Part shown: piece by piece, positions 2,468-25,980 of the stretch
Layout: each line of letters opens with the position of its first letter
How positions within the stretch are numbered: position 1 is the stretch's first letter
Source: Phoronis australis
Taxonomy: Eukaryota; Animalia; Phoronida
Length of the DNA: 64,000 nucleotides
Assembly (NCBI GenBank): GCA_002633005.1
Contig: NMRA01000532.1
Coordinates: forward strand, 1,401 to 65,400
Direction of reading: 5' to 3'
Made by a program: the position numbers and the translations under genes
Notes under the pieces: model-generated
The model's database searches: none
Told to the model about the DNA's origin: nothing
Seen by the model: only the letters and a program-made list of their open reading frames with translations

Positions 2468-5400
2468 TAATATGTTTAACATCCATGTATCGAGAAATAT
2501 CCAAACTATTGTTTGTGCATTAATGATCGTGCACTATGATTGTTTGAAAAATGGATAAGGTCACTGGCAATTTGACAGTTTGGGTTAACAGCCATCCCCG
2601 ATTATCTCAAAAATTCTCCTTAGGCATTGATGCGCGGCTTAACTTGCATGTCACCGTGATGGGCACTTATCTTGTAGTTAATTTGGTGATTATCAGATCT
2701 TTTCAGCATGATGCCCTGTGGTAGTGTCGTCTGCTCACCATCCGTGTAACCTGGATCACCATCTGCAGACCTTCACCTATACTGATGCAAGTGTTAATGA
2801 GTTTCAAGACCGTGAGTTGTGTTATGACAATGTTGTTACTGTATAAAAAAGAACTGAAGGTGTTCAGGGACACCAATCCCTAGTTTCAGCCATTCACTCT
2901 AGTAAAGAGGATGATGGGATTGCAGATGGCTATATGTACCGTCAACAATCTGACTTCCAGCATCAGCACATATGATTGACAGCTATCGATGGGCAAGGTA
3001 ATATGAATGTATGAGGACATGTTTAGGATGAGTGTGACAATATGCCGAGGCATGAATGTGATGATGACGACAACGATGTACGTGAGTGTGTGCATTATGA
3101 GTTTTTTGCATGACGGGATGTCAATCAAGTTAAATAGGTAAAAGTCTTCCTCGTGAAAATGGTAAAACTTTCCTGTCAATTTTTTTCACGACAGGATGTC
3201 CATCAGGTTAAAGGGGTAAAATCTTCCCCCATGAAAAGCTGAAACTTTCGTTGAGTTTTCTCAACAGAGGATGTTACTTGAGGGGAGATTAGCGCCACTG
3301 CTACTGAACTGAAGAAACAGCGGATCATTAAATTCAGTCTTGCAAACTGGGTAAAGTCTTGCCTGGTGGGTTGATGACAATTCTTTAAGTGTCAGTGGTT
3401 AATGAATCCAGAACGTGTGACGAATTAATTGTGAAATGATATGAAACTGAAGAACCCATGATATGCTGTGACTAAATTGAAACCATTGAGTGACAAAGCT
3501 AATTGCGAAAAATAAATGAACCCAAAACATACGAAAATTAATGAACCAAGGAAGTGCGAGTTAATGACAAAAACCTGAAAAAGAGTGTAAACCAAACGAA
3601 ACTATGAAATATGAAAAATTGATGGACCAATGAAATGGGAAACTTTAATGAATTCATAAATTATCACAAGGCTTAGAAGGTGTAACGAACCAACTGAACT
3701 TGTAAAATGAGAGGGTGACATATAAAGACATGCTGGTAAAAACCCACTTGAAAAAGCAAGAACCCATAAAATGTTGAGTGTGATGAATAAAATGGGAGAA
3801 ATAACTGAATCCACAGAATGTGAGAATTTATGAATGAACAAAATGCTACTCAAACAAACCTGTGGTTGCCCAAATTAAACGCAAGCGATAAATCTGTAAA
3901 ATGCTATGACTAAATAAAACCACTGAGAGCAATGAAGGAAAATGTGAAAAACAAATGGAGGAAATACCAGGGTATATTCACACACTGTAAATAAGTTAAG
4001 TCTGGACTGTTGAGTAAAGGTACTAAATTCTTTGCCATCAATATGTTTCCAGGTAAAAGAGAAATTCCTTACCCCAAGGAAATTCGAGGAGATGAAAGCA
4101 AACAAAGTGGGCTGGAACAGCGACTAGTTATTGAATTTGTAAAATCTGAAAAATTAAAGAAAAGTGCAAAAACAGGATGATCTTGTAATGAAATGAGAAA
4201 ATTAAGAAAACCACAATAGACATTGAAAAATTTACAAAATGTGTATAAAATGATCGCTAAAAAACAAAAAGTAAAGTACAGTCATGGATGAGTGAAGGGA
4301 TTAATTGCTAAAAAGTCATGAAACAGGTGTTCAGTGATGAACTTGAAATTATGCAAAAATTACCAATTATTGAATTACTAGGTCATAAGGCAATGATCCC
4401 ACCAAAATGAAATGGCAAAATGCGATGGACGTAATGAACACACCAAATAGATGAACTTGCAAAATGTGGTATTACTGATGCACAAGGACACCTATATGCT
4501 GGCAAAAACCAGTTAATATAAGAAAAATTTGCTAAGCTAATGAAACTTTAATTAATGGAACGAGCGAATGATGACTATGTAAAACGAGTCCTGTAGCAGG
4601 ACTGATAGACCAACAAAGGTGCAGAGAGGAATTGTTTGATAAAAGAACAGTCATCTGATCAGCTATATCTGGAATACATGAGAATAATAACTCGGTGAGA
4701 GAAAGCTTATGCATATGGTAGACAGTGCTTGATGAGATCCATTGTCGACATGCCAAGTTTAGGTAAATACTATCAAGGAAAGCAGGAGATACAACACAGA
4801 TAATCAATAAAAGGAACAGGACCCCTTGGAAAATCTCAAGAACTGAAAGTCTACGAAAAACAATTGGCAAAATTCAGATGGTAGTACTTTATGCAACCTT
4901 ATTCATACACCAAATTTCAAAAAATCCCATGTTTCCGTAATGCAGCAAACTGAGAAATAGATGTCACTGCACCATCTCGCATCACTCAAACAATAGGCCT
5001 TGAGCTAATACAGTAACCTGGAGTGTGAATTTCATGTCGATCTAGTAGGTGAAAAAGTGACCTGTAGCACGAGTGTCATACAAACATAGGTGCAGAAAGG
5101 AATTGGTTAATAACAGAGCAGTCATCTGAATATTGAGTATTTCAATAACAGTAAGTTGAATTAAAACTAATACTGCAACGCATATATCACTTCATGAGGT
5201 CCAGCCATCTGCCTAACTTCAGAAAAATACAGCAATGCCACATCTTGGCAATGTGAAATATCGAAAAACGGCCATCACATGCCATCTTGAATTCCAACCA
5301 AAAACAGTTGAGCTTGAGCTATGAACAAGATGCATGTCAACTGGATAAGAAATTCGACCTGTTGCATGATGGTAGTATGATAGAGCAACACTAAGGCTTT

Positions 5401-8400
5401 GTCAATAAAAGAACAATGATCTAAAGAGAAGAGCAAATTTGAGTGAGAAGCATAAGATGCAGTGCTTGACAAAATTGTTTACATATTAATCATTTTGAGA
5501 AAGATTCATCGAGGGATGCCAGCATGAAAAGTCATTCAACTGAACAGCTGTACCCGAAAAATCCTGAATAACGCGAGATCTGTTGTTGCAAAAGCTAGAT
5601 AGACTATTTATGATAGTCTGCTCTTGAAGAGATTCATCCACATTTACCAACTTTCAAAGAATTTTTTTTCTCCCATTGATGATAGAGCTGTAGCTTCACC
5701 AATCAAAATATCCAAAACAATTGGCCTTTAACTTTGAATGAGACAGTTGTGCGTAATTACATGTTAAGTGGATAAGAAATGCTGTCTGTATCATGCAAAC
5801 AAAGATAAGAAGGTACTCATCCTCTCTTTAATATGTTTGACTAGAGACATCTAATTTATGTTTGGCATATGTGCCGTAATGAACATAGACCATGCGTCAG
5901 GGAAGGTCTGTTATCAGAAATAAATAGGATAGATGGATTTGGGAAAATGTCATTTATTATGATGCAACAGTGAAAATAATGCAAAATACAGTCTTTGAAA
6001 AGAAGGGCATAAAAAATAATAAACAAGAGATGTTTGGGACAGTGCAGGCTCATCTGAGACTAATAGGTTTTTAAGGTGCTGCTCTGAATGGATTTGCCTT
6101 GTGTTATCAACTGTTTCGGACGTTCGGGGTGCCGAAGTGTAGTACATTTCTATACATACATTTTAACATGTAGCAGAGAAGTGTAATAAACCAATAGAAC
6201 TTGCAAGTCTGTTTTTGACTTGCAAAACCAGCTATTTGAGAGATCTGACAACCATTTCAAGGCTATTGTGTGTGAGTTGAATTTTTCGAGACCACTGAAA
6301 AGTTTGCGAAACCAATGCTGAAAAAGTGAACTACACCATTGAACTTAGACGTGGAATGAAGGCATCGAAATAGCCTTCACTTGGAACCGAATCATAAACT
6401 GAGAATCTAGTATACTACGTTCGAACAGTATGTAACATTAACTTTCAACTTGCATAAAGGTTCTTATGGATGAGTACTGTGCGAATTCAAGGCAGATACG
6501 GATCGTATCATTGAGACAATCATTTCTAGCTGTTCAGAAGCAGTAAAAATGAAACTGACTGAAACTGAGTAATCTCAACTGAGACTTGACTGTGGACAAA
6601 ACTACAGCACATACTGCCTAATGTCTTCTCAAGTTTGTAGTATGGACGAGTTGCTGTTCAAACAAATTGTAAGACTGCGTAGACATCAGTCCCACCCATG
6701 TATACAGTGCCACATCCCCAAGTTGTGATAATGAAAATCACCAGGCAAGAACTTTGCAAAAACCAAACCATGAACTGATGAGTTTATACCTGTCATATTT
6801 GAGTGCGCGTGATGCGAAGGTTGTCGAGATGGGTAATAAAAAGTGCAGCACTTGGGTAAGAGAAACCACCGAAAAAGGGGGTAGTAATGGGTGGGAAAAA
6901 ATGAAGAGAGATTAAACTCAAATGCAAGTGCTGCTAATGCGAAGGAATGACAGGAAACATATGGTTACTGAGAACAAAAGGCACGTGATAATCATCAACC
7001 TATAGGTGCCAGAAGCGACCAAACTCGAGGCACAAGACAGAAACAACCAATAGTGAGCCTGGGAAAGAAATGTCCTAGTGCGCTGTGTGTGTGTGCAAAA
7101 GAGCCATATGCGAATCTACACAAGCGATTAATGGACCAGTCCGGAAGCAGGAAAAAGGGGTTCATATTCTCACATTAATATGTTTAACGAGTGAAACAGT
7201 ATTTACATTTGAAGTATGTCTCGAAAATAAAAGGTGTGTCGCAAGCTGTTTCCAGAGATAAAAGGAGACCTGATATAAAAATTGTAAAATTATGGAATTC
7301 ATTGTCACTGACAAGTAATTTACCATGTGTTGCGTTTGTGAGAAAAAAAAGTGTGATTCTTTGTTGAATTGCGCCAAACACCATTGTATAATATGTTGGT
7401 GCAACAAAATAGGGACTTGACCACTGCTTGTCACAATGAACTAAAGGCATTATTAATTGAACAAAACAATGCATCAAGTTAATGGAGTTTTGTGAAATGC
7501 AATAATTGAATGTGTCTGTAGAGTGTCATTAAATAAACAGAGAAATAAATGACCTGTAAAATACTAAATATAATTGAATTCATGAAATTGAGGGAAATAA
7601 AATTCTGCAATCTCATTGATAAACAAGCGTTTCAAGTGGTAAAGAATCCATGAAATGCATCAAGTAAATGGCGTCTTGAGCTACAGCAAGATAATGAAAC
7701 TGAAATTACATGAATTAATGAACTCTCAAATGTGTAAAATGCAGCTATCGAAGGAATGTATTTAATGATAAATCATTAAAAGTTGAGAAATTATTGGTTT
7801 GTTAAAAGCAGTTTTGGAGTACGGAACAAATTAATAATCCCTCAAAATATCACAATCATTAAGCTGTTGTAGTATGACAGAACCCGTAAAATGAACTCAA
7901 TATAGTGTGAAGAAGCAAAATTCTAACTATAAGTGAATCTATAAAATGTAAAAAACAAGTGACCCACAAAAGACGAGTTAATAAACAAGTACAACATGAG
8001 GGTAACCGTAAACGTGAGGGTAACCAAAGTCTCGGAAATTTAAATCGTAAGATGCATCATGGAGTGAAGAAGTAGTGCATCAATTTCCGTGAAGTACGAC
8101 AATTTAATGACTCTGTAGACTGTCATGAAATGAACACAGAAATAAATAACCTGTAAAATTTCAAAAATAAGGAACTGGAACTTGGGAATTAATGAACCCC
8201 TAATCTGTCGGGGATAAAGAAACATTTCATGTGGTAAAGGACCAAGATATGCAACAAATCAATAGGGACCTGAGGTACTGCCAAGTGAATGATATTGGGA
8301 AATTTCTTTGAATAAATGAATCTTCAAAACGTGTTGAATGAACAAGCTGACAACTGATTGAGCCCATCAAATGCATTGAATTACTGAATTCTTAAAATTT

Positions 8401-9302
8401 ATGAAATGAACAATTAAGTGCAAAGTAATGAATTAATACAGCCAGAATGTGGTACATTGAAAGTAAATTGAAATTGGATTAAATAAACAAGTGAAAAAAG
8501 GAAAGTAGGGATGGTGAATGAGCAGGTGAAAACAAACCAAATAGCGAATTGACTTTAAATTCAGCTCAAGGAAACACGTTGATCAAACGTGGCTATCAAA
8601 AACCATAGCCTTCTTTACATCAGTATTCTTTCAAGGAACTGACAGACACAGCTCTGGCTAAAACTAAAGTTCATTCACTGTCCTGAGGCTTAAGGGCAAT
8701 GCAGCATTTTTTTCTGCGAGAAGTCATCTGCTAGCATTTGATTCGGTTTACATTTATTTTATGCTGCATCGAATGGTGGTTCCTTTTTTCACAAACTATA
8801 AAATTATGGAATTCTTTGTTGTCGCTGACAATTATCATTGTGTCTCCATTATGTGAGTGAAGCAAGTTGCGTTTCTTGGTTGGATTGAGTCATACACCAG
8901 TGTATAACATGCTGAAACAACACAATGTGTGATTTTGTGTACACAACAAGTTATAAGAGAAATCTTAAATGTTAAGCGAATGAAAAATAGAGACAGCTCA
9001 TTGAACCAATCAAATGCATTGAATTACTGAATTCTGAAAACTTCTAAAATTAACAATTAAGTGCAAAGTCAAAAATTAATACAGCCAGAACATAGTACAT
9101 TGAAAGTAAATTAAATTAATCGAAAGTGCAAAATAAACATGTGAAAAAAGGAAAGTAGGGATGGTGAATGACCAGGTGACAAAAGATGAATAGCAAATTG
9201 ACTTTAAATTCAGCCCAAGGAAACATGTTGACCAAACATGGCTATCAAAACTGTAGCCTTATTTACATCAGTATTCTTCAAAGGAACTGACAGACTCACC
9301 TG

Positions 9303-9636
9303 GGCCCGGTCTCCAATCTTTTTACTCGAAATGGAACTCGAAATTAGGTTTGGCATTTCTACACTACTTTTGGGCAAACTCAAGATAAGTGTCTATTATT
9401 CTATGCTCGAGTACACAATAACTTACGTAGATAATTTATTGACGTTAGTTCACATTTTGTAAACCCAATATTAAAGCAATTAAAGAAATTTCGAGTTTTT
9501 ACTCGAGTTTGCATAAACTACTATATATTCGAGCACAATCTGACAACCAATTATCTTAAGTTTGCACAAAAGGAGCAGAGAAATTGCCAAAAATAGTTTC
9601 AAGTTCGTTTCGAGTACAAAGATTAGAGACCGGGCC
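9303..9636. mobile_element. MITE, PIF/Harbinger-like (~60-bp TIR GGCCCGGTCTC.AATCTTT.TACTCGAAA, CWG target)
   Basis: TIRs at both ends; flanked by CTG/CAG; empty site ctctggttaaaac present in the paralogous module at ~50211. Confidence 0.85.
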
Positions 9637-10055
9637 CAGGTTAAAACTAAATTCATTCACTGTCCTGAGGCTTAAGGGCATGCAGCATTTTTTTCAATAC
9701 TCTATTGGGAGAAGTGATTTGGTTGGGTTTACAATTATTTTATGCTGCATCAAGTGCTGGTTCCTTTTTTCACAAATTGTAAAATTATGGAATTCAGTGT
9801 TATCACTGACAATTGCCATTTTGTCTCCATTATATGAGGAAAGCAACTTGTGTTTCTTGGTTGGATTGTGCCATACACCAGACTGAGTGTATAACATGCT
9901 GAAACAGCACAATGAGTGATTTTGTGTACACCACAAGTTATAAGAGTGATCTTAACAAACCAAAGAATGTAATGAAATTAGAAAGGAGTAATGCTTCATG
10001 AATAGAACAAATAAGTGCATTGAATTAATGGAGCTGTGTGAAATGGCACAAAGGA

Positions 10056-10265
10056 CCTCTGATTCGTCGATTCAATCGAGGCCTCTGATTGGTCGATTGA
10101 ATCGAGGCCTCTGATTGGTCGATTGAATCGAGGCCTCTGATTGGTCGGTTGAATCGAGGCCTCTGATTGGTCGATTCAATCGAGGCCTCTGATTGGTCGG
10201 TTGAATCGAGGCCTCTGATTGGTCGATTCAATCGAGGCCTCTGATTGGTCGATTGAATCGAGGCC
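10056..10265. repeat. 26-bp minisatellite (cctctgattggtcg[a/g]tt[c/g]aatcgagg), ~8 units
   Basis: Direct tandem units. Confidence 0.97.
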
Positions 10266-11207: not shown

Positions 11208-11307
11208 AGGATATGTGCGGCAAGTTTACCTTTGCTGCACCAAGCTATTCTGTTCTGGAGAGTGCTGGCACGCTAGAAGTGGATGTGTTGTTTCACCGCA
11301 AGAAAAT
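11208..11307 (+). CDS. SLC8A: NCX exon: start of CBD1 ([32 protein letters not shown])
   Basis: cttatag acceptor, gtgagt donor; peptide matches Calx-beta strands A-B (NCX1 FFEQGTYQCLENCGTV). Confidence 0.85.
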
Positions 11308-14300
11308 GTGAGTGTTTATAAGTGATCTTAGAGCTCGTGAGGGTTCCTAAAAATTCAGTGTTACCGTGATTTGGTCCGCAAAGCGTATCTCTACTATCTT
11401 AGTTGTTGTGGACATTTTTATTCCACTGTGGTTTCCTCAGTCGATAATGTTCCCACTGTATTGTTGGTCTTCAGCACAGTTTTTGTAATCGATGTAGGAT
11501 TCGTGATAATTTTGAATGGTACCTCATAAGCTTTTCAGTTATCCTTTCAGAATTGTATAATATTATGTTGTATCCTGAACTTATCGAGTCAAACTTCTTC
11601 TGACCTATCTAACGTCTTCATGGCACTGAACAAGAAAATCTATAATATGTGAGATGAAATTATTAATAAAAAACAAACGAAATGTTGACTTTTGCATGTG
11701 GAAATCAATTTGTTTTAAATTTTGTTTTTCAGATCCAAGTCCACTTTAAAAGTTGCTGTGAGTAGTCTTTAAGTTCTAATTGTTGAAAAGACAAGTAATT
11801 TTCTCTAGTTTAGAATACCGTACTTGCACTGGCTCAAAAATACTCGATTGAGACACTGTATATATGTTGCTGCTCTTGAACAATTTTTTCAATCCAGATT
11901 TTTATTTCCAATGTTTTACAACTTGATGAATCCAGGATTAAGTAATTGTGTGCAGACCAACTAAATCCGGTAATGTTTTTCACAGTTACTACCCTTACTA
12001 AATTAATACGGTAACCAACAGTTACAAAACTGTTAAAACCCAAGTTCCTGGTTATAGCATCCTTTGTTATGTGAAGAGCATTAATTATAATGGGGCTTTT
12101 GCATTTCTGCTTATACTGTTGAGTTCAGGTTATAACTTTACAAGTGCTTTCTAAACCCACTCACAGAGGTGTAGAACGGAGTGTTGTAACCCTTTGGTGG
12201 TATGGGACATTTGTAAAAAACAAAATTTTTAGTCTCCTAAAACTACAGTACATTACTGTGTCCTGTGGTATGGAGTTATGGTATGCTCGGGGTAACAATG
12301 GAAGTTATTTTACCCCCAAGTTATTTTCCTTTTCTCAGAATGGTGGAACTACCATTGCCAACAACAACACTGACGAAAAGGAAACCACTCTAACAGAAGT
12401 GACACCTATGGACAGGGAACTGGAAGACATTATCACAGGAGTTGTCTCAGTTGATTTTGAGACACGCGAAGGAACCGCTAAGATGGACAAAGATTTCAAA
12501 TTTGCTCAAGGAAAATTGGTAAGCTCAGTTTCAATTCCAGTGCAATAATTTATCGTATTATTTTGGAAATTAATCATTCAATCCGAATGCATTGTCAAGT
12601 TCAAATTTGAATAAATCAATTTAACTGCAATCACTTGAAAATTGTCTGATATCATTTTTGGCTTTAGTAATGGACTTACCCAGAGTATGCAAGTGATATC
12701 TTTATACTAAACATGGAACTTGAGAGATCAGTGAAATGCGTTATTAGCTGGACACTCAGGTCTCAGTTGTGCAATGCTCCAATCTATGTTTCATGAAACA
12801 TCCAGAAAACAACTGAGAAACCTGCATGTTAGGCAAACCGATGCAATGTTTTTCTGGATGATGCTTTCATTTTTATGTGTCCCCCCAGGCTTTATATTGC
12901 CGTCATAACCTCTGTTTGGGCATCTGGTGTAGGCTGCTGTATCTCCTAAATTCCTTGCCCGGTTTTCATGAGATTCAGTAGAGTCGACGTGTTCCTTTGA
13001 AGCTAACTGCAGACAAGTTTCGGACTGAACCGAATGCTGCAGTTACTGCTTAGTAGCAGATTTGGTTTTTTAACTTTGCTTCTGTTTCTACGAAGTTCCT
13101 TGACAGCTTTTTTTTCAAAAAATGGCAAATAGGTTTCGATTGAAACACCAGCAGCCTTCGAATTGTGAATGCATTTGACGATTTTCAACCACTGTCGGAC
13201 ATCTTAATTTATTTTTAGTCTGCTTCTCTATTTGCCAAATCCCTTGAAGGTCATGATTGTGAAGTTTGGAAGATATATTCTTATTGAGGAGAGCACTTCT
13301 GACATTGATTTTTCGACAGGTATTGCTACTGTGGTGTCCCCTAGTGGCCATTTTTTTGCTTTGCTTCTGCCTCAGTATCTACTAAGTTTGTGGATGGACC
13401 CGAGTATTGTGCTGTTTCCTTGTGGAAATTATGATTTTCTTTACATCTGCCTCAGTATTTTCCAACTTCCTTCTATGGAACTTGGTGTAATAGAGCATAT
13501 GTGCTCCTACACTCCTTATTCTGAAAATTGTATCTCGCGTAATGGTTCCAGATTTTAGTTATATCTTATACATGGATGGTAGTATGTTCCCAGTTTTGGA
13601 TGGATATAAACTATTCTGTGCTCCTAGTGACCAATTTTTGATTACTTTTACCTGTGTCTGTGGCATTTGCTTCTATATGTGCCAAAGTGCTTGAAGGATC
13701 ATTATGAAAATTGACGGGTGTGTTCCTACTGAGAAGACTGACTTTGATATTCAGATGGTCCTATCTATTGTGGCAGTCCGTAGGTGCATTTATTTCATCT
13801 GTGGCTATATTTCCTTTATCCTTTGTGGGATGTCCGTGGCAAGTCTTTCCCAGGAATGTGAGAACAACTTTTTACTTTTGGACATATCTGTGCCCCCTAG
13901 TGGCAGTTTGATTTTTTACCACGGCCTGTTTTATTTGACGGATTTTCTGGAATTACAGAGACAACAGCACCTTTTCAACTTTTGAGAGATTTGGTTATTC
14001 TGTGCCACTCAGTGGCCATTTTTAGATTTTTTATTTTATTATTCATTATTTATACATCAATTACCTAAAAAACCACTGAGTCACTGATCAGTCTATTTAA
14101 TCATGCTTTCATTGTCCATTAATTATCACCACGTACCTAAAAACCACAGCCATTGATCTACCTACTGAGTCATTTTTTCATCATTCACTAATTATCCACC
14201 ACTTATACCTAACAAACCACTCATCTGTCTACTCAATCATCCTTTCATTATTCACTAAGTATCCTCCACTTAACTAACAAACCACTCATCTGTCTACTCA

Positions 14301-17300
14301 ATCATCCTCTCATTATTCACTAAGTATCCTCCACTTAACTAACAAACCACTCATCTGTCTACTCAATCATCCTTTCATTATTCACTAAGTATCCTCCACT
14401 TAACTAACAAACCACTCATCTGTCTACTCAATCATCCTCTCATTATTCACTAAGTATCCACCACTTATAACTAACAAACCACTCATCTGTCTACTCAATC
14501 ATCCTCTCATTATTCACTAAGTATCCACCACTTATAACTAACAAACCACTCATCTGTCTACTCACCTACTTTCATTGGCCATTGGCTCAAAAATACTCGC
14601 TAAACTCATTGAGGCACTGTAAATATGTTGCTGCTCTTGAACGTTTTTTTTTTTCAATCCAAAGTTTTACTTCCAATGTTTTACAAACCACTGAGTCACT
14701 GATCTGTCTTTTCAATCATGCTGTCCTTATCCATTAATTCCCATCACTGACCTATCATCCTGTCATTACCCATTATCAAATTACGTAACAAACTCTTACT
14801 AGATATTACTTTCTTGATTCTCTTGTGTTTGAAGACTGTTGTTTTTTGCCATCTTATGATTTTAGAGAATGTGAGATTTTTTTATGTAAATTTGTAATTT
14901 TACTTACAGTTAAGTAACTATGTAAGTAAAAGTATGCATAACCTTTAAAATTTCGGTAAGATTAGAGATTACTCAACTTCCATTTTCCTTCTGAATAATG
15001 TGATTTTGAAGAGATAATTGAGACTCATTTTAGATGTAAAATATTTTTCGTTTCACGTATATCGCTTTAAGGCAAATGTCCTAAAGAGCCAGTCACATGC
15101 TGTTAAAAGACGTCAAGTAAATGCAACTATTTTTGTTGAATCTCGTACTCTCTTCTACTCATTAAGAGATCCTGTAATATGTCATTTAATTGTTGTTTCT
15201 ATGGATGAGTTTTGTGATCAGAGAGATTCCACTGTTTTAGATTTTCCACGAGGAAGAATTCTGTAAAACCATCTCCATACCCATAGTGGCTGATCACCAG
15301 TGGGAAGGAGACAATGAGTTTTACGTTATTTTGAAAAACCCACAAGGTGACTCGGGCCTTGGGGACCCCAGTGTTACACGCGTCCTGATTATTGATGATG
15401 ACGGTAGGTGCAGACATGGTTTGAAGAGATCGCTTGATCGGCTTGGGTATGAGCAACTTCAAATTTGGCAAGCCAAGTGATTTTTATCAAAATAACTTTT
15501 TAGCTGCCGTAGTTGTGTTGGGCACCAATTGGTGCATTATACTGGCAGTGAGACTCGTAAAACAGATGGAGAGAAATTTTAGTTTTTTAAGTTGCTCAGG
15601 CTTGCTGATTAAGTGACTTGTTTGTTATGAGTTTGTGTGTGTTTTCAACGATACCACATTTGTTCATTTTAGGTATTTGCAGAGCACGAGTATAGGAAGA
15701 CAATTTCGGTTCCGATTATCAACGATTTGAATTTCCATAATAATGTTGAGTTCTACGTTATATTAAAAAATCCCGATGGGGACGCGGGTATTGGCGACCC
15801 AAGCATCACCCGTTGCACAATAGTTGATGATGATGGTAAGATAGTCCCCAGTTTTGCACTCCTCTATCCAACTTTTCGCTGTTTTGCCTGTGTGTTTCAC
15901 CTCTATGCCTTCCCGGGAGTTTCTCTTCACTGTTTTAAATGATTCAGCCCGTGCCTTTGCATACACTGAGCTTTAAATGCACTCTCCAGGTGTCACTCCT
16001 CAGCAATGGTCATAAGATAATCCAATGATTTGGACTTTTGTTACTAATACATAATGTCTGTTTTCTCTCCTCTATGCTTAGTTCTAAGGAGTGACCCAGG
16101 GATACCCACTGTAATTTCGCTCACACACAGTTAACCCAAGGGAGTTGACCACAAACAATATAACTTTTACTGTTGCTGTGTTTTATCTCACATATTAAAA
16201 TACAGAAAGCTGCTCATCTTATATATGTTTGTAAGTGAGATTGCCAAATTCTGTTTCGCTGGAGTGTCAAATGTATTTATAAGTTGTTTATTTTTGCCAC
16301 ATTTTACTTTGGGAAAATGAAAAATGTGGACTACACTTAATCTAATCTAACTTGAACAGATCTCTGTAAAAATTGTATCACCAATCACATTTGACAAACT
16401 TAAATACTCGTAAGACGTGTTTTGCGTGACTACCTCGGTCTTTACTGAATTCTTTCCCATCGCACTAGTTGCTACATCCTAACGCATGCTCCTCAAGCCA
16501 GTGAGCTGCGAAAATAGTCACTGGAGAACATCTTCACTCAGTGAAGGTCACATTTTATTGAGCGATGAAACTAACAATGAGATGTCACACTGCCGTTATT
16601 CCGTTTTGCAACATTCTTGCTGTCTCCACTGCTAGCCTATCTGACAGCACTACAGTAGTATAGCTCAGGCTTTTGCTGGTGTTGGAAGGTAGAATGCACA
16701 AAAACAAAATTAATGTAAGGTGTACTCAACATAGTAGAACTCGCCCAATAAAACTAGCTCAGCACACACAAGTGTGAGACCCTCAGCAGAGACTAGCTGT
16801 ATACAACAATGTGATGATAGACAGCACAGTTTTTGGAGAGCGTAGTTTGATTTCAGAATGAAGCTCATCTTTAGCAATCCTTTGGTAAAGTAATTTCTGT
16901 ATCCTCATTTAACACACCCCCTTCCACACAGTGCAACGTCCTACACACATCCTAGCTTTCATTTCCTTTCTTTTAGTCACGCTCTCAAAACTCAAGGGTA
17001 ATAATCCTTTCTATAGTTATTGAGTACATAGCATGTGCTTTTAAGACCTAGTAGTCATTGGTATAGTCTTGGTGTTACATGTGACAGGGACGGATATGAT
17101 TAGTTTAAGGATGGGGGCGTCACTAATATCTCTATGGTGCATCCCGTCATTATCGTCTGTGTGAAATGATCCCTCAGAGTCAACTATGTGGAGTAACCCC
17201 CGTCATCTACTCTCAACCACGAGGCTATTTCAGTCACTGAGTTTAGTTTTAGAATATGCAACTGCATAAGGCCAAAAAGCGTAAGTGATTCTGGTCTTTT

Positions 17301-20300
17301 TTGCAAACCGTTTCCATGGTGAGGTATTTTTTCTTGCTTGTTCATAATTTTAAAAGGAAAATGCACCTGAGGTTAAACCAAAATGACGAGGGATTTTTGT
17401 TAATTTTACCCATTGTTTTGTAAATCATTGTCTTCAAAACCTTGCTTGTTCTTGCTGACTGGCTTTTGTGCATCTTTTTAAAAAAGCACAAGACCAGTAG
17501 GCTGACATTGATGGGGCAAGCAATTTTTTTCTTAGTCGAAGAGTACTGGTCTCAAAGTGAGTCTGAGTAACGACCAGAACCAACCAATGCTTTTTTGGCC
17601 TAAAATCAGATACGATTGTGGGAGTAGTGAGTTAATCCGTCCCTGTTCACTTTGCTATATAGTTGTATCTGGGTTACCATAGTAACTTTGCTATTCAATT
17701 CTAGATGTATATAGCTGAAACTCGCTAAGCATTGATGTGTAGAGTTTGATTAGAATACATTTTAGCACTTGCTTGTTAGATTTTATTGAATGATGTGTTG
17801 TGATTAAGGCGTATTTAGTTATTTTAACTAAAATGTTATTGGTGTGATGTGTAGGTGACACCAGCTTGCAAGTTTTAGTAAAATGGACAAGACTGATATA
17901 GATCTGTCATTATCTTGCAAAAATCGCTACATGTAAACAATGCACTTACTGTGCATTTGGAATTATAATTAATGTTTTAGTCTCATTTTCTTAAATAACA
18001 CCAGTGGGATCATATGTTAGATTCTGTTGACTCTAAACTGATTCTGCATTTCAATACATTTTTCAGATACACTTTTATGCGCCTACGATATATGGCGTCA
18101 TCCCCATCCATCCGTCCTTAAGGCGTCCGCTTCTGTATCTCCAAAACCCCTTCATGGATTTTGTGAAATTTTGCAGTCATGCTTGTGTCATGAATGAGAC
18201 AACACAAATGAATTGTTTTGACAGATCTGACTACTGCTGTGCCTCCTAATGGCAATTTTATTTTTTACGTTTGTCTCAGTCTGTCAATTAAAGATCTTTC
18301 CTTGACGAATTTCCATCTGTGACGAATTCAACATAGTCTGCACCACTTAGTGGCCATTTTACTGTGGCACCCCGTAGTGGCTGTTTTTGCTAAGACCCCT
18401 GCAGGATATTTGTTAAATTTGGCAAGTGTATTTCTATGGACGTGACAACGACGACAACTTTCGGAGGTAATTGCAGCAACAGTTGTACTTCATCCCTGGT
18501 GGTAATTTTAGTTTTTCACTATCTTTTGAATATTCAAAATTCCTTGATTAATTTTCATGAAATTTGGCCATAAGTTTACTTTTTTGGATAAATTTGACGC
18601 AAATAGTATGCCACCTACTAGCCATTTTTATTATTTTTTTCAAATTTCATTTTGGTGTCTGCCTTTCTATCTCCAAACCACTAAGAATTGATAATGAAAA
18701 TTTATTTGGCAATTGTGTTTCTTCTGGAAAGTTCCTGGCAAAACATGATGTTTGGACAGACTTACTGATTTGGTGCCCTCTATTGACAATTTTGTTATTT
18801 TTGCCTCAGTGGTTCCATATCTACCATGTACCTCAATAGATAGTCTTGAAATATAAATGATGCGGATTTTGTGTCAAATTTAACTACTGTGGAATCTCCT
18901 ACAGGCAATGCTTGTCTTTGTGTTTGCCTTAATATCTATCAAGTTCTGTGATGCATGTTCATGAAATTTGGCTAATAAGTTACTATCATGAACACATCAC
19001 AAATCCTGTTGCAGACGGATTTGACCTACATTGCCCCCCTACCGGCCTTTTTATTGTTTTTTTTTTGTCTGTTCTTTGTTGTCCTCCCCATAATCTTCCA
19101 AACTTTGTGGAGAATCATGATGAAAAGTGACAGGTGTGTTCCTATTAAGGAAAGCATTGCTGACTTCTTTTGCACCCTATAGGGGTTATTGTTTTAAACT
19201 TACTGGCATTGCTCCCTCTGGTGGGAATGTTTAAAATAGTAACTATCTCTTGTATCTGCTCTGTGTGTGATGCAAGCAGTGGGTACTTATTAATTTTTGC
19301 TTTGTTTACATTCAAAAAGATTTTAAAAGCCAGTGCAGGTACAAACATCAAAAACTGATTAAAACTGTGCTGGATTAGTTGTAGTGAATGATCTACTTAT
19401 CACCCTGAGTATGACAAAGATGGCACATTGATCACTTGTGAAAATATTGGGTACATCTAAGCTGTTTGACGTTGACTTTTACCTTGTCCTGCAGTCTGTC
19501 ACAGCCATTGAGAAAGAGCAAGGCTTATATGTTTGGAAGATTTACTCAGATTTATTCTGCTTCTTCCGTACTTGGTAATGGAGTAGCCTTTATACAGTCA
19601 TATAGTTTTCATAAATTCAATACCTAACAAGCCTTTGGGACCTTCTTTTGCAACACAAATTTGCACTTCTTTCACTGCGACAATGTCCATAGTTTTAATT
19701 TCCTGTGATTGTGTTTTCCTGTCAATGAAATGCAAGCACTCAGATGACCTTTTAACTTTTTCGCGTACATGCATGTTGACCTTTGACCTGCGAACGTCAC
19801 AGTAATGACACCGCAACTGCATGTGAGTGCTGGATCAATTCACATAGAATGTAGCTATCCACTTTTTTGATGAGTATTTAGTTCACGGAATGATTCCATA
19901 TTCACAAGACTAATGTGCATAAGCCATAACCTTTTGTTCAGACACCTGGGGCTGAAACATTTCAATACTAATTTAGTTTCCATTGTTTTATTTCACCAAC
20001 TTACCGCATTCCTATGTGTTTTTAAACTCTTTTTCAGAACCTGGGGAGTTCACTTTTGAAAAATCTCATTTGTACGCTGACCCCAGCAATGGGGTCGCTA
20101 CGGCAACTGTGATGCGTCAGAAAGGCTGTGATGGGACTGTTACTATAGAGTTCTCAACAATGTAAGTTTCTTCAAACACTTTAACTTCGGATTGTTTAGG
20201 ATAATTTGAATATGATGAAATTTTTAAGATATGGAGTAATCATTTTGAAGTAGAACAAAATGACACATTTCCTTTCAAGGTCAGTCAGTGTGAAGTAATT

Positions 20301-23300
20301 GCCTCTATTGGTGGAGAACTTTTAACTTATAACTGGCAATTTACATTGTGCTATCATCTGAGGTATCCTGTTGGGGCTGAAAGGAAAACATCTTGGTAAT
20401 CTTCTATTTTTGTGGTTAGGTGTTATTACTTCAGTGTTGAAAATCCTTTATTCACTCACTTTAGAAATTTGTTCACAATTTTTGATTCTTAGAATTTAAG
20501 GAAAATATGCCTTGTAGTTAAATGAAAACCAGTGGCTCGGTTGTTTATTTTTGCTAATTGTGTTTCCACCAACAGTGATGGTCTGGCTAAAGGGGGTCCG
20601 TCAGATAGTGAGGAGGCCGACTACGTAGCAAGTGGCGGTATTTTGGAGTTTAAGCACGGGGAGACCAGCAAAGAAATCAGCGTCCAGTTGAATAAAGCAC
20701 TTACTACAAAGGTATAATGAGGAGTAGTATTGAGAAAATATAACGAGATAAGGAAGGTGTAAGGATGGGTAATAAATGGAGGTCCTCTGATAGTGATGGA
20801 ACTTGAAGTAACAGGAATTACGTATTTTAAACAAATGAGTACCTTTTGCTTATTACAAAAATATCACAAACTGAGTGGTATTATTTGTTATTTGAGCTTG
20901 ATTAAAGTTTTAGTTTTCAGAGGAAACTATAAGCTGCTAGATATAAAAATTTGTGTTTGCGAATTGCGATTTTTCCCCGTAGCATTGGCTGTATGCAAGT
21001 CGACTCCTTAACAAATGATGTGAAGTGTGCAAGAACATGGAATACATTTTAAATTCTTAGAGAGGCTTCATTGTTTTGTTTTCAGGGCTTCAAGAACTTT
21101 ATCGTTGCATTGAGGAACCCAAGCTTAGGAGCAAAAATTGGAGAGCACAGCGCCACAGTGGTCAATCTTACACAAGGTGGGATATGGTGATGGGCAGTTT
21201 GTGTTTTGGAGCTTTGTTTCTTGCTTTACATTTAAGAAATCCAAATTGGATCACTTTGTTTCTTGCTTTACAATTAAGAAATCCAAAATGGATCACTTTG
21301 TTTCTTGCTTTACATTTAAGAAATCCAAAATGGATCACTACAGCTATAACCACGTCTAATGAAAATGAATATTGTCGGAAAGACAACTAATTGAAGTTGA
21401 ATCTCATTAAGTCAAATTAACATTTTCTGTAGAAGTGACGTGTATTTGATAAGTGACTTTACGGGGGAGGTGCAGGCCCTCTACTGACATGACAAAAAAT
21501 GTCATCGTTGGCATCTTTCAAAGCTTTGTAGCTTTTGAAAATCTCGTCTAAGTGGCAAATATGTATTTAAAGTACATTGTTTTACGCCACCAAATTTTGT
21601 GATTTTTCAGTGTCTGCTATGAATTTGTTCAATTAGGTGTGCTACTTCTTAACTGTACGTCTTGAGTTTGCATGAAATTGTCTACTATTCCAGATGAAAT
21701 AGGCGACCGCATTGCTGAAATATTGGACGATGACGAAGACGAAAAAATCTCTTGGGGGGAGCAGTTCAGGAAGTATGTATTTTCAGTTATTATGTTATTC
21801 CATGTGTTATTTTATTTTACGTTATTCCAAGTGTTATTTTATTTTATGTTATTCTAAGTGTTATTTACATTTATTTATTTCAAGTGTTATTTTATTTTAC
21901 ATTATTCCAAGTGTTATTTTATTTTACATTTTTCCAAGTGTTACTTTTTTGAGTTCAGCTATTTTTAAAAAGTAGACAGTGTACGTGTTTGCACAGCTTT
22001 TTCACGTACGACAAATTGAAACCAGGCACATATTAACTACCACTGAAATTCTAACAGTTACGAGCGGTGTTATGTTGCTGTATCAGCACATGCTTTGGTA
22101 CTGTCAAGCGACTTGACAATAGTAAACCCAGTAAGTCACCGACTGCCTCCCGTACAGTATTGATAACCATAAACATACTGACTTTCTCACTTACAGTATC
22201 ACTACAGCCCAGACATCGATAATCTCGCCTGTATAAATAATTACAATTCCACACCGACTGCACAATTAGGGTACCAATCTCGGCGACAAACGCACATTTG
22301 CAGCACAATTTCACATTTTATTCTCAGTACAGTTGACACAGTGACTATACGATCATTTTTCAAAATTGTAACTTACACCTGTCCCACTTAATACCAATTA
22401 CGTTAGCTCACCACATAGCTTGGTCATTTTTCCTGTTCATCTTTAGGTATTACAGCGTAATAAATACTCTGGAGGTTGGTGTAAATAGGCCAATAGGTTA
22501 TAAATGATATGTTAGTACATGGCCATTTTAAAGCAGTTTCGGGATGTCTAACTGAAAATGGCAACTGTAGTAAGACCGAACATTAACTGCCATATTATAA
22601 TAGGAATGAGAATTATGGTTATGGGAGTGCCTGTAATGAGTCAGTGTACTGATATTATAATTATTATAATTTCAAATAATGCAAATGGTGTTTGTGCTTG
22701 TTCAGTTCCATGAAGATTGAGGCAGACGAGGACGAGGATGGGAACGAGATACCCCTTAAGTGGTACGACTATGCGCTGCACTTCGTCATGTTTGCATGGA
22801 AAATCTTCTTTGCCTTTATTCCACCCACGTGAGTATTACAGGGACGTGCATGAGACGCCTGAGTGTCTTTCCAGTTATGCTATAACTTCCTCTCTTTTAA
22901 TGGCCATGTCAGACTAGAGTGGTAATGTGAATTAATTTCTGATAGTAGGCATCTGTGCATATGTTGGGAGAATGCTACGTTTTTTTCCTTTCTGGTACTC
23001 TGATATTTAGCTAGCCCAGGCATACTTTTGGAATTAGGAGGTCTATCAACCAAAAACGGTTAATTTATAGTAGGTTGTGAAGTGTGTTTGCAAATATGAA
23101 AAACTAAAAACAACATAATGATTAAAATGGGTTTCTAAAACTGCAGACTGACGTGATAATTGACTGTAAATTTAGCTTTTGCTGACACTGTTCATTATTG
23201 GGAACCCTTCAGGACCTGAGAAATTACATATAACTGGGGCCCAAAAATAGCTAGGCTATGGGCCTATACGTGGATAATTTTTCTAATATAGGCTATGCAG

Positions 23301-25980
23301 CTGCTCTCTGAGTAAGTGAACTTTGTGAATTATTTAAATATTAAGTTATTGGATATTCTATTGATCAGATCCTCAGTGTCAATGTTTGGCCAATCCCCTT
23401 TAGCATACATATCATCCCCTGTAAACATCCATAAGGAAAAACATCCATACGTAAAAGGAAAAATCCATAAGATCTCTAAACTGGATTGCAAGGTGACATT
23501 TTATTAATTATTCGGTGAAATAAGACCTGCTCCTACAAGTTACGCCATTGAAAAGATCCTTCCGTTCACGGAGAAATCCACTGCTTTATTGCGTCCTGAA
23601 TTTCCTTACGGGAGACCCCATTCAGAATCTTTTCAGTCACAACTGAAAGTCGCTTTCGAAACAAAACGTTACTTCACAGTTGTCGGGATTCTCGAAATGC
23701 AGTGTGCACATGATCAAAGTGGAAGGAAATCTAGCTACCATGAAATAATGCGCGATTTTATAAGACCGTTTACTGGCTGTTTGTGCTCTCTGTGGTGTAC
23801 AGTACATTTGTAAACGTTGACATCATAGGAATTGTTTATAGCTCTGAATTAATATAATTGAAGTTTTTTTTAAAAGAATCGTACACACGTATACTATTTT
23901 ATTGATTCAAATCTGTATAAAATACAGACATTCTGAATAGGTTGACATGTTGAATTGTTTCCCATTGGCAGGCACATGGGTGGAGGCGGGCCTGCCTTCT
24001 GCTTGTCACTCGCCTTCGTAGGCTTCTGTACAGCCGTTGTGGAAACATTGGGTCACTTGTTGGGGTGTGTCGTTGGACTCTACGTCCCTGTGACAGGTAT
24101 GTTGAGTTAGCATTGTTAAAGTCATTAGACTCAATGTCGCTGTGACAGGTATGTTGAACTATAGCATTGTGAAAGTCACCGGACTCTATACATTTATGTG
24201 GTAGACATGTTGAACTAGCATGTGGAAAGTGTCCTCTGACCACTTTGTCAGCGTCAAAAGAAATAATAATTTTAGAACTTGGAATGCAAGCTTACAATTT
24301 ATGCTTTCTCCTTCTGTGTCAGGCTCATTTCAGATTTTCCACATTTTGACATGACTTTGTTATCCAATGCAGGTATCACTATTGTTGCTTTTGGTACCAG
24401 TTTGCCAGACACCTTTGCTAGTCGGACGGCCGCATTACAAGATGATGGTGCAGACGCTGCCATTGGCAACATCACAGGTAACATTCATTTCAATGCATCA
24501 GAGGACTTGCTATGTTTCACCTGTTGATAACACGGTGTTTGTCCAATTTAACACTGCATGGGAAATAGTGATATTAGTGACCCAAATTTTGAGGTCGGTA
24601 CAAGAGGAGTTTAACTCTTTGTCAACCTCCTGACATGCAATTATCAAAACACGACAACAGGTGGAATATAGACCTGCTGCTGTTTTGTTTTCATGGGGAA
24701 CTGAATTTCAGTTTGAAGGAGCTTAATTGACTGCATGCGAAAGTAATTTCTGTAAACTCTTTTTTAAATGCATTCATTTTTTTATCAGTGGAATAGCAGC
24801 GCCACAGATTGTGACATTTTTGTCCAATGGGATCAAGTTCTGTAGTAAACATGAGGTTTCATTAGGCCAAAGAAAATGGCATAGTTGGTTCTCAATGGTC
24901 TGCACCTGACTCAGTTTTAAATTTGTGTCCCATTTTTAAAGAAAAAAATCCTGCCTTACTTTTGCAATTTTCGCTAGCACCACCACAGTGTTTTGCATCA
25001 CCTTTTCGTAATGTAAGATTGAGTCTTGTAAGTTGTCCTGCCTCGTATGTCACAGTCTTTTGTTGATTGATTATAGGTAGTAATAGTGTCAACGTATTCC
25101 TGGGTCTGGGGTTGCCGTGGGTGATGAGTACACTATATTACTATTTCACAAACAAGAACAAGGGTGTCTACACAGTGTCACAGGCGAGCCTTCCACAGTC
25201 CGTCATTATTTTCACCACATGTGGCACCATCTGTATAATCATGCTGCTGGTTCGGAGAGTGGTGAGTCCTGCTCTTTGGCTTTATTCTTTAGATGGATTG
25301 TTGAGAGCCACGTAATAATTCGGATCTCATTGAAGTGGCAAACACTATTCATGTGAGATATTTTTTCATTTGGTATGATAAAGCTTTTCATCGTATTGTA
25401 AGATTTTTCATGTAAGAGAATTTTTTTCTCCATTTTCACATTTTCATATAATTCTAAAGTTCCGTGCACCTACATGATACAAATGATGCATGCGTATTGC
25501 TGTCATCTCAGTCTGGGTGTCCTACATCTGCTACCTGGCATCATCTTAGTCCTGGCTTACTGCATCATTCTGTATTTGCGTCTGCTTCTTTATGCCAAGT
25601 CACTCGCGGTGTGTAAAATGGAGCAAATGTGTGTCACCAAAAAGATGCTGCCTGTAAATGTTTAACTGCTGCATCCCCTGAGGTGATTTTAACGTTTTTG
25701 TGTTCATTTTGCACCCTGCTCTCTACAAGTATATCTACCGAACAGTTTGAGGATTGTCATGAAATTTGAGGGATGCTCTTTCGTTTTCTTTGTTGTTACT
25801 TCTCTAGACTGTCAAATTTACCGAATTATTATGTGTATTTGTTCACAGGTGATTGGAGGAGAACTAGGGGGATCTAAAGTTGTCAAGTGGGCGTGCAGTA
25901 TTGTTCTCCTAATTCTCTGGTTCACATACATTATTATCTCTGCTGCTCTTGCCTATGGGTGGTTCAAGTGGGAAATGTGA
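11208..25980 (+). CDS. SLC8A: Sodium/calcium exchanger (SLC8/NCX family), 3' part: CBD1, CBD2, TM6-TM10; spliced CDS of 13 exons per isoform, ~521 aa visible, N-terminal exons outside the window
   Basis: GT-AG exons join in one frame (1568 nt; first exon enters in phase 1) to a TGA at 25978-25980. Diagnostic motifs: [38 protein letters not shown] (CBD1-CBD2 linker), [23 protein letters not shown], alpha-2 repeat [17 protein letters not shown]...[30 protein letters not shown]. Calx-beta domains indicate NCX rather than NCKX. Confidence 0.95.
11733..11757 (+). CDS. SLC8A: NCX 25-nt microexon (ISKSTLKVA)
   Basis: tttgtttttcag acceptor, gtgagt donor; converts the phase-2 end of the upstream exon to the phase-0 start of the downstream exon. 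Confidence 0.75.
12339..12518 (+). CDS. SLC8A: NCX exon: CBD1 loop insert plus strands C-D (NGGTT...[27 protein letters not shown])
   Basis: tttctcag / gtaagc; [11 protein letters not shown] matches NCX1 VDFRTEDGTAN. Confidence 0.9.
12871..14020 (+). mobile_element. Degenerate interspersed element with ~130-150-bp internal repeats carrying a GCCCCCTAGTGGC motif (Helentron/HINE-like non-autonomous element)
   Basis: Same 5' head (ttttatg.g.c...atat.g.cgtc...ctgtatctcc) as 18073 and 10329; motif recurs at ~13333, 13618, 13889 and 14002. Family assignment is inference. Confidence 0.55.
14070..14570. repeat. 65-67-bp minisatellite, ~7 units
   Basis: aacaaaccactcatctgtctactc recurs at 14211, 14276, 14341, 14406, 14473 and 14540. 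Confidence 0.95.
15241..15403 (+). CDS. SLC8A: NCX mutually exclusive exon a, CBD1 C-terminal half ([54 protein letters not shown])
   Basis: ttttag / gtaggt; 163 nt, phase 0 to phase 1; open frame. Confidence 0.9.
15673..15835 (+). CDS. SLC8A: NCX mutually exclusive exon b, CBD1 C-terminal half ([54 protein letters not shown])
   Basis: ttttag / gtaaga; 163 nt, same phases as exon a; open frame, clear paralogue of exon a. Confidence 0.9.
17270..17600. mobile_element. MITE with GGCCAAAAA TIR and TAA TSD
   Basis: taa|ggccaaaaagc...ttctggtc and gaccagaa...gcttttttggcc|taa. Confidence 0.7.
18073..19230 (+). mobile_element. Second copy of the element with periodic GCCCCCTAGTGGC-like motif
   Basis: Head ttttatgcgcct...atatggcgtc, short (ccat/ccgt)n tract, then motif at ~18240, 18340, 18366, 18490, 18609, 18773, 19031 and 19210. 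Confidence 0.55.
20038..20161 (+). CDS. SLC8A: NCX exon: start of CBD2 ([41 protein letters not shown])
   Basis: ttttcag / gtaagt; phase-compatible with either exon a or exon b. Confidence 0.9.
20576..20711 (+). CDS. SLC8A: NCX exon: CBD2 ([46 protein letters not shown])
   Basis: aacag / gtataa; DG.AKGG..DY....G.LEF Calx-beta motif. Confidence 0.9.
21086..21176 (+). CDS. SLC8A: NCX exon: end of CBD2 ([30 protein letters not shown])
   Basis: ttttcag / gtggga; frame-compatible; Calx-beta strands F-G. Confidence 0.85.
21212..21337. repeat. 42-bp tandem repeat x3 (intronic)
   Basis: ctttgtttcttgctttacatttaagaaatccaaa.tggatca x3. Confidence 0.95.
21694..21772 (+). CDS. SLC8A: NCX exon ([26 protein letters not shown])
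   Basis: ttccag / gtatgt; SWGEQF matches NCX SWREQF. Confidence 0.9.
21790..21945. repeat. ~27-bp AT-rich tandem repeat (intronic)
   Basis: ttattccaagtgttattttattttac, ~5-6 units. Confidence 0.85.
22706..22828 (+). CDS. SLC8A: NCX exon ([41 protein letters not shown])
   Basis: ttcag / gtgagt; matches NCX DYVMHFLTVFWKVLFAFVPP. Confidence 0.92.
23972..24096 (+). CDS. SLC8A: NCX exon TM6-7 ([41 protein letters not shown])
   Basis: ggcag / gtatgt; hydrophobic TM peptide in frame. Confidence 0.9.
24077..24235. repeat. ~52-bp tandem repeat x3 spanning the exon 23972-24096 donor site
   Basis: gactc...ctgtgacaggtatgttga...tagcattgt.aaagtca repeated. Confidence 0.8.
24373..24477 (+). CDS. SLC8A: NCX exon, alpha-2 repeat ([35 protein letters not shown])
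   Basis: tgcag / gtaaca; canonical GTSxPD ion-binding motif. Confidence 0.95.
25077..25261 (+). CDS. SLC8A: NCX exon ([24 protein letters not shown]...IIMLLVRRV)
   Basis: ttatag / gtgagt; matches GSNAVNVFLGIG. Confidence 0.93.
25849..25980 (+). CDS. SLC8A: NCX terminal coding exon ([43 protein letters not shown])
   Basis: ttcacag acceptor; GGELGG motif, last TM, TGA stop. Confidence 0.93.
   Translation: MIGGELGGSKVVKWACSIVLLILWFTYIIISAALAYGWFKWEM

What the first reader, a model, noticed from the sequence alone, without database searches (positions are those of the whole stretch)
15404..15672. Intron between the two alternative exons folds into a long hairpin that could enforce exclusivity
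Seen in this 269-nt intron: tcgcttgatcggc (15430-15442) pairs fully with gctgattaagtga (15604-15616; 13 bp, 3 G.U). tgagcaactt (15450-15459) pairs perfectly with aagttgctca (15589-15598). gctgccgta (15503-15511) pairs with tactggcagt (15540-15549; one bulge). The apex is gcacc-aatt-ggtgc (15522-15535). All four stems nest. Folding leaves ~26 nt after the exon-a donor and ~32 nt before a candidate branch point (ttcaac, ~15648). Known: a donor-to-branch-point distance below roughly 50-60 nt sterically blocks splicing, and RNA pairing controls mutually exclusive splicing in insect genes such as Dscam. Inference: the hairpin shortens the effective intron so that exon a cannot join exon b.
Basis: partly seen in the sequence, partly recalled or inferred. 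Interest (0 to 1): 0.8.

Follow-up and report, generated by a model that had tools for sequence, protein, structure and literature searches.

The report
Hairpin between twin calcium-exchanger exons
In an invertebrate sodium-calcium exchanger gene, two duplicated exons are each spliced in on their own, and the short intron between them is predicted to fold end-to-end into a hairpin that likely helps keep the two from being joined, with nonsense-mediated decay as a likely backup.

Summary
The stems are real. The 269-nt intron lies between two 163-nt duplicated exons that encode the second half of the first Ca-binding domain of an NCX-like (SLC8) gene. Contigs of one public run show all four either-or junctions (upstream-a, a-downstream, upstream-b, b-downstream) and no a-b joint; joining a+b gives a stop 23 nt into b. 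The intron folds better than shuffles (z -2.6 to -2.8) and better than 43 of 43 other intron windows of the gene. The signal sits in a 27-bp outer helix linking the intron's ends. The lock itself is unproven. The folded donor-to-branch linker is about 56 nt, a geometry that yeast 'zipper stems' use to promote splicing. Opening the splice signals costs no more than in shuffles. The helix is lost in 12 of 36 wider folding windows. No relative carries the duplication, so covariation could not be tested. Verdict: a real, apparently undescribed either-or exon pair with a plausible RNA brake (about 45%) and a frameshift backup.

The parts
12339..12518 (+). Constitutive exon upstream of the pair (first half of CBD1)
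   Evidence: tblastn to relatives; AG/GT ends; its last 29 nt are the loose ends before both a and b in run X2
15241..15403 (+). Exon a, 163 nt, phase 0 to 1; Calx-beta C-terminal half; keeps the Glu aligned to NCX1 E451
   Evidence: junction contigs at both ends
15404..15672 (+). Intervening GT..AG intron, 269 nt, shortest of the 13 introns modelled
15410..15416 (+). Weak extension helix (with 15619-15625 or further downstream) that closes the naked RNA to a 16-27-nt linker
   Evidence: P 0.76 at 37 C; worth -4.7 kcal/mol; cost not above shuffles
15430..15459 (+). 5' arm of the 27-bp outer helix
   Evidence: P 0.97-0.98 for the 13- and 10-bp parts in the isolated intron
15469..15491 (+). Rival local partner of the 5' arm (hairpin 15420-15496), made before the 3' arm
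   Evidence: about 7 kcal/mol less stable in the isolated intron; alone z -1.5
15503..15549 (+). Inner hairpin with apex 15522-15535
   Evidence: P 0.85-1.0; alone z -1.65
15558..15580 (+). Loop segment able to pair with 15916-15937 below exon b (22 bp), which would loop out b
   Evidence: -25.1 kcal/mol; 4 of 64 shuffles as good, rank 3 of 43 tiles
15589..15616 (+). 3' arm of the outer helix; holds the best branch-point-like motif (A15608, -65)
15644..15649 (+).
15673..15835 (+). Exon b, 163 nt, phase 0 to 1; 59% amino-acid identity to a; His and Asn at two acidic positions kept by most relatives
   Evidence: junction contigs at both ends
15916..15937 (+). Possible long-range partner below exon b
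   Evidence: not significant
20038..20161 (+). Constitutive exon downstream of the pair (start of CBD2)
   Evidence: its first 29 nt are the loose ends behind both a and b in run X2

Best explanation
Exons a and b are a tandem-duplicated either-or pair of an NCX-like gene, and the intron between them is predicted to fold into a 27-bp end-bridging helix that likely acts as a brake on joining a to b, with a frameshift that would send leaked a+b messages to nonsense-mediated decay. Shown: the exon pair, the four either-or junctions, the frameshift arithmetic and the complementarity. Inferred: the helix forms in the pre-mRNA; it clamps exon a's donor to within about 56 nt (16-27 nt in naked RNA) of the -26 branch candidate and buries the better branch motif at -65; U1 on a's donor and U2 for b's acceptor therefore rarely assemble across this intron, while each site can still be used with its distant partner once the helix breathes or is unwound. 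The brake is probably leaky rather than an absolute steric lock.
For: Four either-or junctions and no a-b joint in run X2 contigs. Both exons have GT/AG sites like their neighbours and flank the gene's shortest intron, between introns of 2.7 and 4.2 kb, so by inference something must disfavour its removal. Linear steric block and long AG-free zone are absent (AG-free zone 39 nt). The donors do not look like U12 donors (consensus recalled). The strongest end-to-end duplex of all 13 introns is in exactly this intron (-43.8 vs -13.3 to -23.6 kcal/mol); z -2.6/-2.8; 0 of 43 control windows as strong. All 6 non-Watson-Crick pairs in the helix are G.U and the other strand folds less well (z -1.8), which fits an RNA helix better than a decayed DNA inverted repeat. 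Allelic differences are 2 in 269 nt here vs 10 in 341 nt just upstream, none in the four named stems (weak). [quoted passage not shown]
Against: The 26+30-nt linker meets the yeast zipper-stem criteria for a spliceosome-compatible, often splicing-promoting stem (PMC12350175 passages). Costs of opening the U1 site, the U2/pyrimidine region, both, or the extra linker are no higher than for 15 shuffled interiors. The outer helix is kept in only 24 of 36 wider windows at span 400 and is lost to rival folds in 12. No covariation or cross-species conservation: no relative has the duplication. Zero variants in stems is expected by chance (2 variants, 75 of 269 nt in stems, about 0.52). The missing a-b joint comes from contigs at low depth, which drop rare forms. 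Conserved human intronic pairings tend to avoid branch points (PMC8052449 passages), whereas this helix covers the best motif.
Confidence: 0.45

Rival explanations
1. The helix is incidental (chance in G/U-rich sequence, or formed but without effect); exon choice is set by splicing proteins and splice-site competition, and a+b or neither is removed by nonsense-mediated decay.
For: 163 nt is not a multiple of three; a+b stops at 15695 with 9 junctions downstream, and skipping both also stops. Fold significance is only about p 0.005-0.02. Energies of site opening are ordinary. Protein-based control with steric and structural models excluded is reported for Drosophila Rdl exon 3 (PMC13762713 passages).
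Against: The strongest end-bridging duplex of 13 introns falls in the one intron where it would matter. Decay alone would waste most transcripts if a 269-nt intron were freely removed (inference).
Confidence: 0.27
2. A two-state switch picks the exon. State 1: the outer helix forms. State 2: the 5' arm folds locally (15420-15496) and 15558-15580 pairs with 15916-15937, looping out exon b; other partners (exon a 15276-15303, exon a's acceptor 15232-15239) could silence a. The helix would then be one arm of competing structures rather than a ruler.
For: State 2 dominates in all 9 windows that reach 15950 at span 400. The local hairpin is complete before the 3' arm is transcribed. The 5' arm's second-best partner among 778 windows lies in exon a (-29.0 kcal/mol; 1-3 of 300 controls as good).
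Against: Each rival helix is weak on its own: local hairpin z -1.5; loop-out duplex matched by 4 of 64 shuffles; the exon-a pairing reaches at most P 0.23 in folding snapshots and two other 163-nt tiles of 91 score -28 to -30. With spans of 200-300 the outer helix wins in 6 of 6 windows.
Confidence: 0.17
3. The helix is a zipper stem that speeds removal of this intron, making a+b messages on purpose so that decay tunes gene output.
For: Geometry fits the zipper definition (26 nt, 30 nt, total 56).
Against: No a-b joint in the only run with spliced junctions; both exons have stayed intact although synonymous sites have largely diverged (10 of 32 same-residue codons identical).
Confidence: 0.07
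4. The arms are the relic of a small inverted-repeat element.
For: The window is rich in repeats; the arms are 129 nt apart.
Against: No second copy in the window; only one contig covers this part in the deepest DNA run at 85% likeness; no read pile-up here, unlike the repeat at 18100-19300; G.U-only wobble; no Rfam match.
Confidence: 0.04

Closest known systems
Steric-hindrance either-or exons (OGDH 4a/4b; 57 human clusters with donor-to-branch <50 nt) - PMC7969005 and PMC5740500, passages seen
   Same: Two duplicated exons, short intervening intron, proposed block of joint U1/U2 assembly; OGDH exons also switch Ca sensitivity and carry a hairpin over the branch points.
   Different: There the branch point is linearly 25-46 nt from the donor with a long AG-free zone; here the candidates are 205 and 244 nt away and the AG-free zone is 39 nt, so closeness would have to come from folding.
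Dscam exon 17.1/17.2 (Yue et al. 2013; not held, title and one citing sentence seen, content otherwise recalled)
   Same: Steric hindrance combined with RNA structure in a two-exon cluster.
   Different: As I recall it, the steric part there is linear closeness and the structures mask or bridge sites; I could not check this. No conserved structure could be shown here.
Yeast zipper stems (RPS17B and others) - PMC12350175, passages seen
   Same: A helix joining the donor side to the branch-point side with a 42-85-nt linker; ours is 56 nt.
   Different: They mostly promote splicing of constitutive introns (one reported exception, RPL28); here the opposite effect is proposed, between alternative exons.
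Docking-site/selector structures (Dscam1 exon 6, srp, ATE1) - PMC6071210, PMC11802352, passages seen
   Same: Intronic pairing near duplicated exons; rival partners can be drawn.
   Different: The main helix lies wholly inside the intervening intron and loops out no exon; competing partners are not significant.
Vertebrate NCX1/NCX3 exons A/B - PMC9820601, passages seen
   Same: Either-or exons that change acidic Ca-binding residues of a Calx-beta domain.
   Different: Vertebrate A/B are in CBD2; this pair is in CBD1 of a separate invertebrate NCX-like clade and arose independently.

Membership tests
Tandem-duplicated mutually exclusive exon pair | Homologous exons of equal length and phase with canonical splice sites | tested here: met
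   163 nt each, 58% nt and 59% aa identity, AG/GT
Tandem-duplicated mutually exclusive exon pair | Each exon is spliced to both flanking exons | tested here: met
   four junction loose ends in run X2; one run, contigs only
Tandem-duplicated mutually exclusive exon pair | The two are not joined to each other | tested here: inconclusive
   no joint listed, but contigs drop rare forms
Steric-hindrance exons (OGDH type) | Branch point linearly <50 nt from the upstream donor | tested here: not met
   best motifs at +205 and +244; only poor motifs at +11 to +34; branch point not mapped
Steric-hindrance exons (OGDH type) | Long AG-free zone and pyrimidine tract from the branch point to the acceptor | tested here: not met
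   AG-free zone 39 nt; 20 AGs in the intron
Decay-enforced exon pair | Joint inclusion shifts the frame and gives an early stop upstream of further junctions | tested here: met
   stop ends at 15695, 9 junctions downstream
Decay-enforced exon pair | a+b transcripts rise when decay is blocked | not testable with these tools
   needs an experiment
Docking-site/selector structure | One element with two competing partners, each tied to one exon | tested here: inconclusive
   rival partners exist but are weak
Docking-site/selector structure | Conservation and covariation across species | not testable with these tools
   no orthologous intron found; L003 and L004 hold one exon copy between the flanking exons
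Zipper stem | [quoted passage not shown] | tested here: met
   26, 30 and 56 nt if the branch point is at -26; not met if it is at -65
Zipper stem | Promotes removal of the intron | not testable with these tools
   no a-b joint seen
U2/U12 incompatibility | Mixed major and minor splice sites around the pair | tested here: not met
   donors GTAAGC, GTAGGT, GTAAGA are major type (minor consensus recalled)
SLC8/NCX-like exchanger | Calx-beta domains followed by a Na/Ca-exchanger membrane half | tested here: met
   Pfam Calx-beta; 44-60% identity over about 515 aa to annotated NCX-like proteins; the N-terminal half is not in the window

The most novel reading that the evidence does not exclude
A hairpin inside the intervening intron creates a 'folded' steric lock: it turns a 269-nt intron into one that cannot be spliced, a mechanism distinct from linear branch-point closeness and from docking-site loops. 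Here it would gate two versions of an exchanger's primary calcium sensor, one with and one without the E451-equivalent ligand - a convergent CBD1 counterpart of vertebrate NCX exons A/B.
Probability: 0.3. Interest if true: 0.7.

Novelty: new member of a known kind. Interest (0 to 1): 0.42.

Why it matters
Most either-or exon clusters have no identified enforcing mechanism. If folding alone can push a medium-sized intron under the spliceosome's size limit, screens that use linear donor-to-branch distance miss a class of cases, and it would define where a splicing-promoting zipper stem turns into a block. This 269-nt intron is a compact minigene test. Separately, the exon pair predicts two exchanger forms that differ at the calcium-sensing loop of CBD1, where vertebrates do not splice.

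Tried and rejected
No whole genome is held, so no genome-wide repeat or branch-point survey. Raw RNA runs X5-X7 (18-19% of each read) and contig run X8 gave no exon-junction reads and almost no cover of the exons: no evidence either way. The run search listed no RNA holder; X2 is labelled 'DNA?' but carries spliced junctions. Protein searches and cluster look-ups: of 320 proteins held, 174 carry the segment once and none twice; none of 26 species with two or more isoforms held showed two versions (for Branchiostoma floridae 15 of 30 cluster members were listed). Rfam: no match. Hairpin below exon b (15985-16102): z -1.1, rejected. Pairing of the 5' arm with exon a: significant as a duplex but barely populated. 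Distant branch point at +21 brought to the acceptor by the hairpin: considered, motif poor. The careful tree did not finish; the quick tree was used. Yue et al. 2013 could not be read. Earlier-findings look-ups by place, by gene words and by sequence were empty.

Full report
Setting. The window is AT-rich animal DNA. The finding lies in a plus-strand gene of at least 14 exons, 11208-25980, matching NCX-like (SLC8) exchangers of echinoderms, hemichordates, amphioxus and spiralians; the N-terminal half is not in the window. A quick tree places the protein outside the deuterostome group, in an unresolved set with spiralian proteins, nearest Owenia at 62% identity (careful search unfinished). No whole genome is held.

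The exon pair. 15241-15403 (a) and 15673-15835 (b) are both 163 nt, phase 0 to 1, 58% identical in DNA and 59% in protein, and both match Pfam Calx-beta positions 64-119. Either alone keeps the frame to the normal stop; a+b stops at 15695 with nine junctions downstream, and skipping both also stops. Contigs of run X2, labelled 'DNA?' by guess, carry loose ends that are the last 29 nt of the 12339-12518 exon before both a and b (26 nt before b) and the first 29 nt of the 20038 exon behind both; the table of joints is empty, so no a-b contig was seen (compared). This is one run, at low depth, as contigs: it shows both forms exist, not that a+b is absent. Three raw RNA runs barely touched the exons.

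Age and spread. Only 10 of 32 codons for shared residues are identical, so the duplication is old and both copies have stayed intact. It looks lineage-specific: none of 320 proteins held has the segment twice, no species' isoform set has two versions, and two genomic loci that span both flanking exons have a single exon with the same ends. No orthologous intron was available, so covariation, the best computational test, could not be run.

The fold. The two outer ones form one 27-bp helix, 15430-15459 with 15589-15616, with pair probabilities 0.97-0.98 for the 13- and 10-bp parts at 15-37 C. The intron folds at -77.7 kcal/mol, z -2.6 (1 of 200 shuffles) and -2.8 (3 of 400); the reverse strand gives -1.8. 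None of 43 other intron windows reaches -2.6. The end-to-end duplex is -43.8 against -13.3 to -23.6 for the 12 other introns and at best -33.9 in 156 cross pairs. 4 of 200 shuffles have 21 or more confident long-range pairs. So the helix is real at about p 0.005-0.02, and the inner hairpin adds little. It is not a known RNA family and shows no sign of being a repeat. Between the alleles of sample S1 the intron has 2 differences in 269 nt, against 10 in the 341 nt upstream; one is unpaired, one breaks a side hairpin, none is in the named stems. With two variants this is uninformative for the stems.

Against robustness. In 36 wider windows (span 400) the outer helix holds in 24 and is lost in 12; at spans 200-300 it holds in 6 of 6. 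The rival fold pairs the 5' arm locally (15420-15496, about 7 kcal/mol less stable in the isolated intron, and complete first during transcription) and pairs 15558-15580 with 15916-15937, looping out b. Neither rival helix is significant alone.

Does it shorten the intron enough? Sampled folds of naked RNA close further (median 16 nt, 94% under 42), but with U1, U2 and pyrimidine-tract sites open the median is 56 and 37% are under 42. The published steric limit is about 50 nt (PMC7969005 and PMC5740500 passages); 60 was used as a cut-off in PMC13762713. Rangan et al. modelled stems with 42-85-nt linkers as compatible with the A complex and mostly splicing-promoting (PMC12350175 passages). The energy to clear that geometry is 3.4 kcal/mol, against 4.6 +/- 2.3 in 15 shuffled interiors. 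So the numbers sit at the edge of the claim, not under it. The helix may therefore hide a branch point as much as it shortens a distance.

Weighing. Something should stop a 269-nt intron with ordinary sites from being removed ahead of its 2.7- and 4.2-kb neighbours (inference). Linear steric block and minor-spliceosome mixing are excluded. The gene's strongest end-bridging helix sits in just this intron. I therefore give 0.45 to the helix being a brake on a-b joining, 0.27 to an incidental helix with proteins plus decay, 0.17 to a competing-structure switch, 0.07 to a zipper feeding decay and 0.04 to a repeat relic.

Protein consequence (inferred). Against NCX1 structures the segment runs from the loop with D446-E454 to D498-D500 of CBD1 (residue numbers partly recalled). 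Exon a keeps Glu at the position of E451, which binds three Ca ions in NCX1 (PMC9820601 passages), and Asp two places on; exon b has His and Asn, where 42 and 39 of 46 distinct relatives have Glu and Asp. Vertebrate exons A/B do the like in CBD2.

Literature. Nine full-text searches listed no paper on this exon pair and none whose listing or read passages describes an intervening-intron hairpin that blocks joining by shortening; (all six terms) returned none. The closest paper, Yue et al. 2013 on Dscam exon 17, is not held; I saw its title and one citing sentence. Subscription papers are outside the library, and no supplements were read. Other passages seen: PMC6071210, PMC11802352, PMC8052449, PMC7404189, PMC12962786 and PMC8042237; PMC4691838 had none of the terms. 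An unchecked note of this scan describes the same layout in an octopus UBR2 gene; it is a lead, not support.

Noticed in passing
window 15241-15403 vs 15673-15835: Exon b has lost two acidic residues of the CBD1 calcium-binding loop (Glu to His, Asp to Asn) that exon a and most relatives keep; possible Ca-sensitive and Ca-insensitive forms, convergent with vertebrate NCX exons A/B in CBD2.
   Followed up: partly
window 15220-15239, 15558-15580, 15916-15937: A 10-nt word occurs both at exon a's acceptor and below exon b, and both copies can pair with the same loop segment of the intervening intron; 15220-15230 can also pair with 15916-15926. Not significant against shuffles.
   Followed up: partly
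window 15200-15240: Exon a's acceptor is unusual: purine-rich with several AGs 14-22 nt upstream (AG-free zone 13 nt), so probably weak.
   Followed up: no
introns ending 11732, 20037, 22705, 23971: The best branch-point-like motifs lie at -54 to -67, three of them with AG-free zones of 59-77 nt, further from the acceptor than usual.
   Followed up: partly
window 11733-11757: A 25-nt micro-exon with AG/GT ends is needed to keep the frame between the 11208 and 12339 exons.
   Followed up: partly
window 384-10265, 41226-64000: A roughly 10-kb block is repeated at 90-98% identity in direct and inverted copies, forming a large nested duplication or an assembly of allelic copies.
   Followed up: no
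window 18100-19300: A dispersed repeat inside the intron below exon b draws hundreds of RNA reads, nearly all of one orientation.
   Followed up: no
P0209/P0210 and P0216/P0217 (Haliotis rufescens): Equal-length isoforms differ by a 21-residue block upstream of CBD1, suggesting another either-or exon pair in the abalone orthologue.
   Followed up: no
run X2 on window 14900-17700: A run labelled 'DNA?' holds spliced junctions as well as intron sequence, so it contains RNA-derived sequence.
   Followed up: yes
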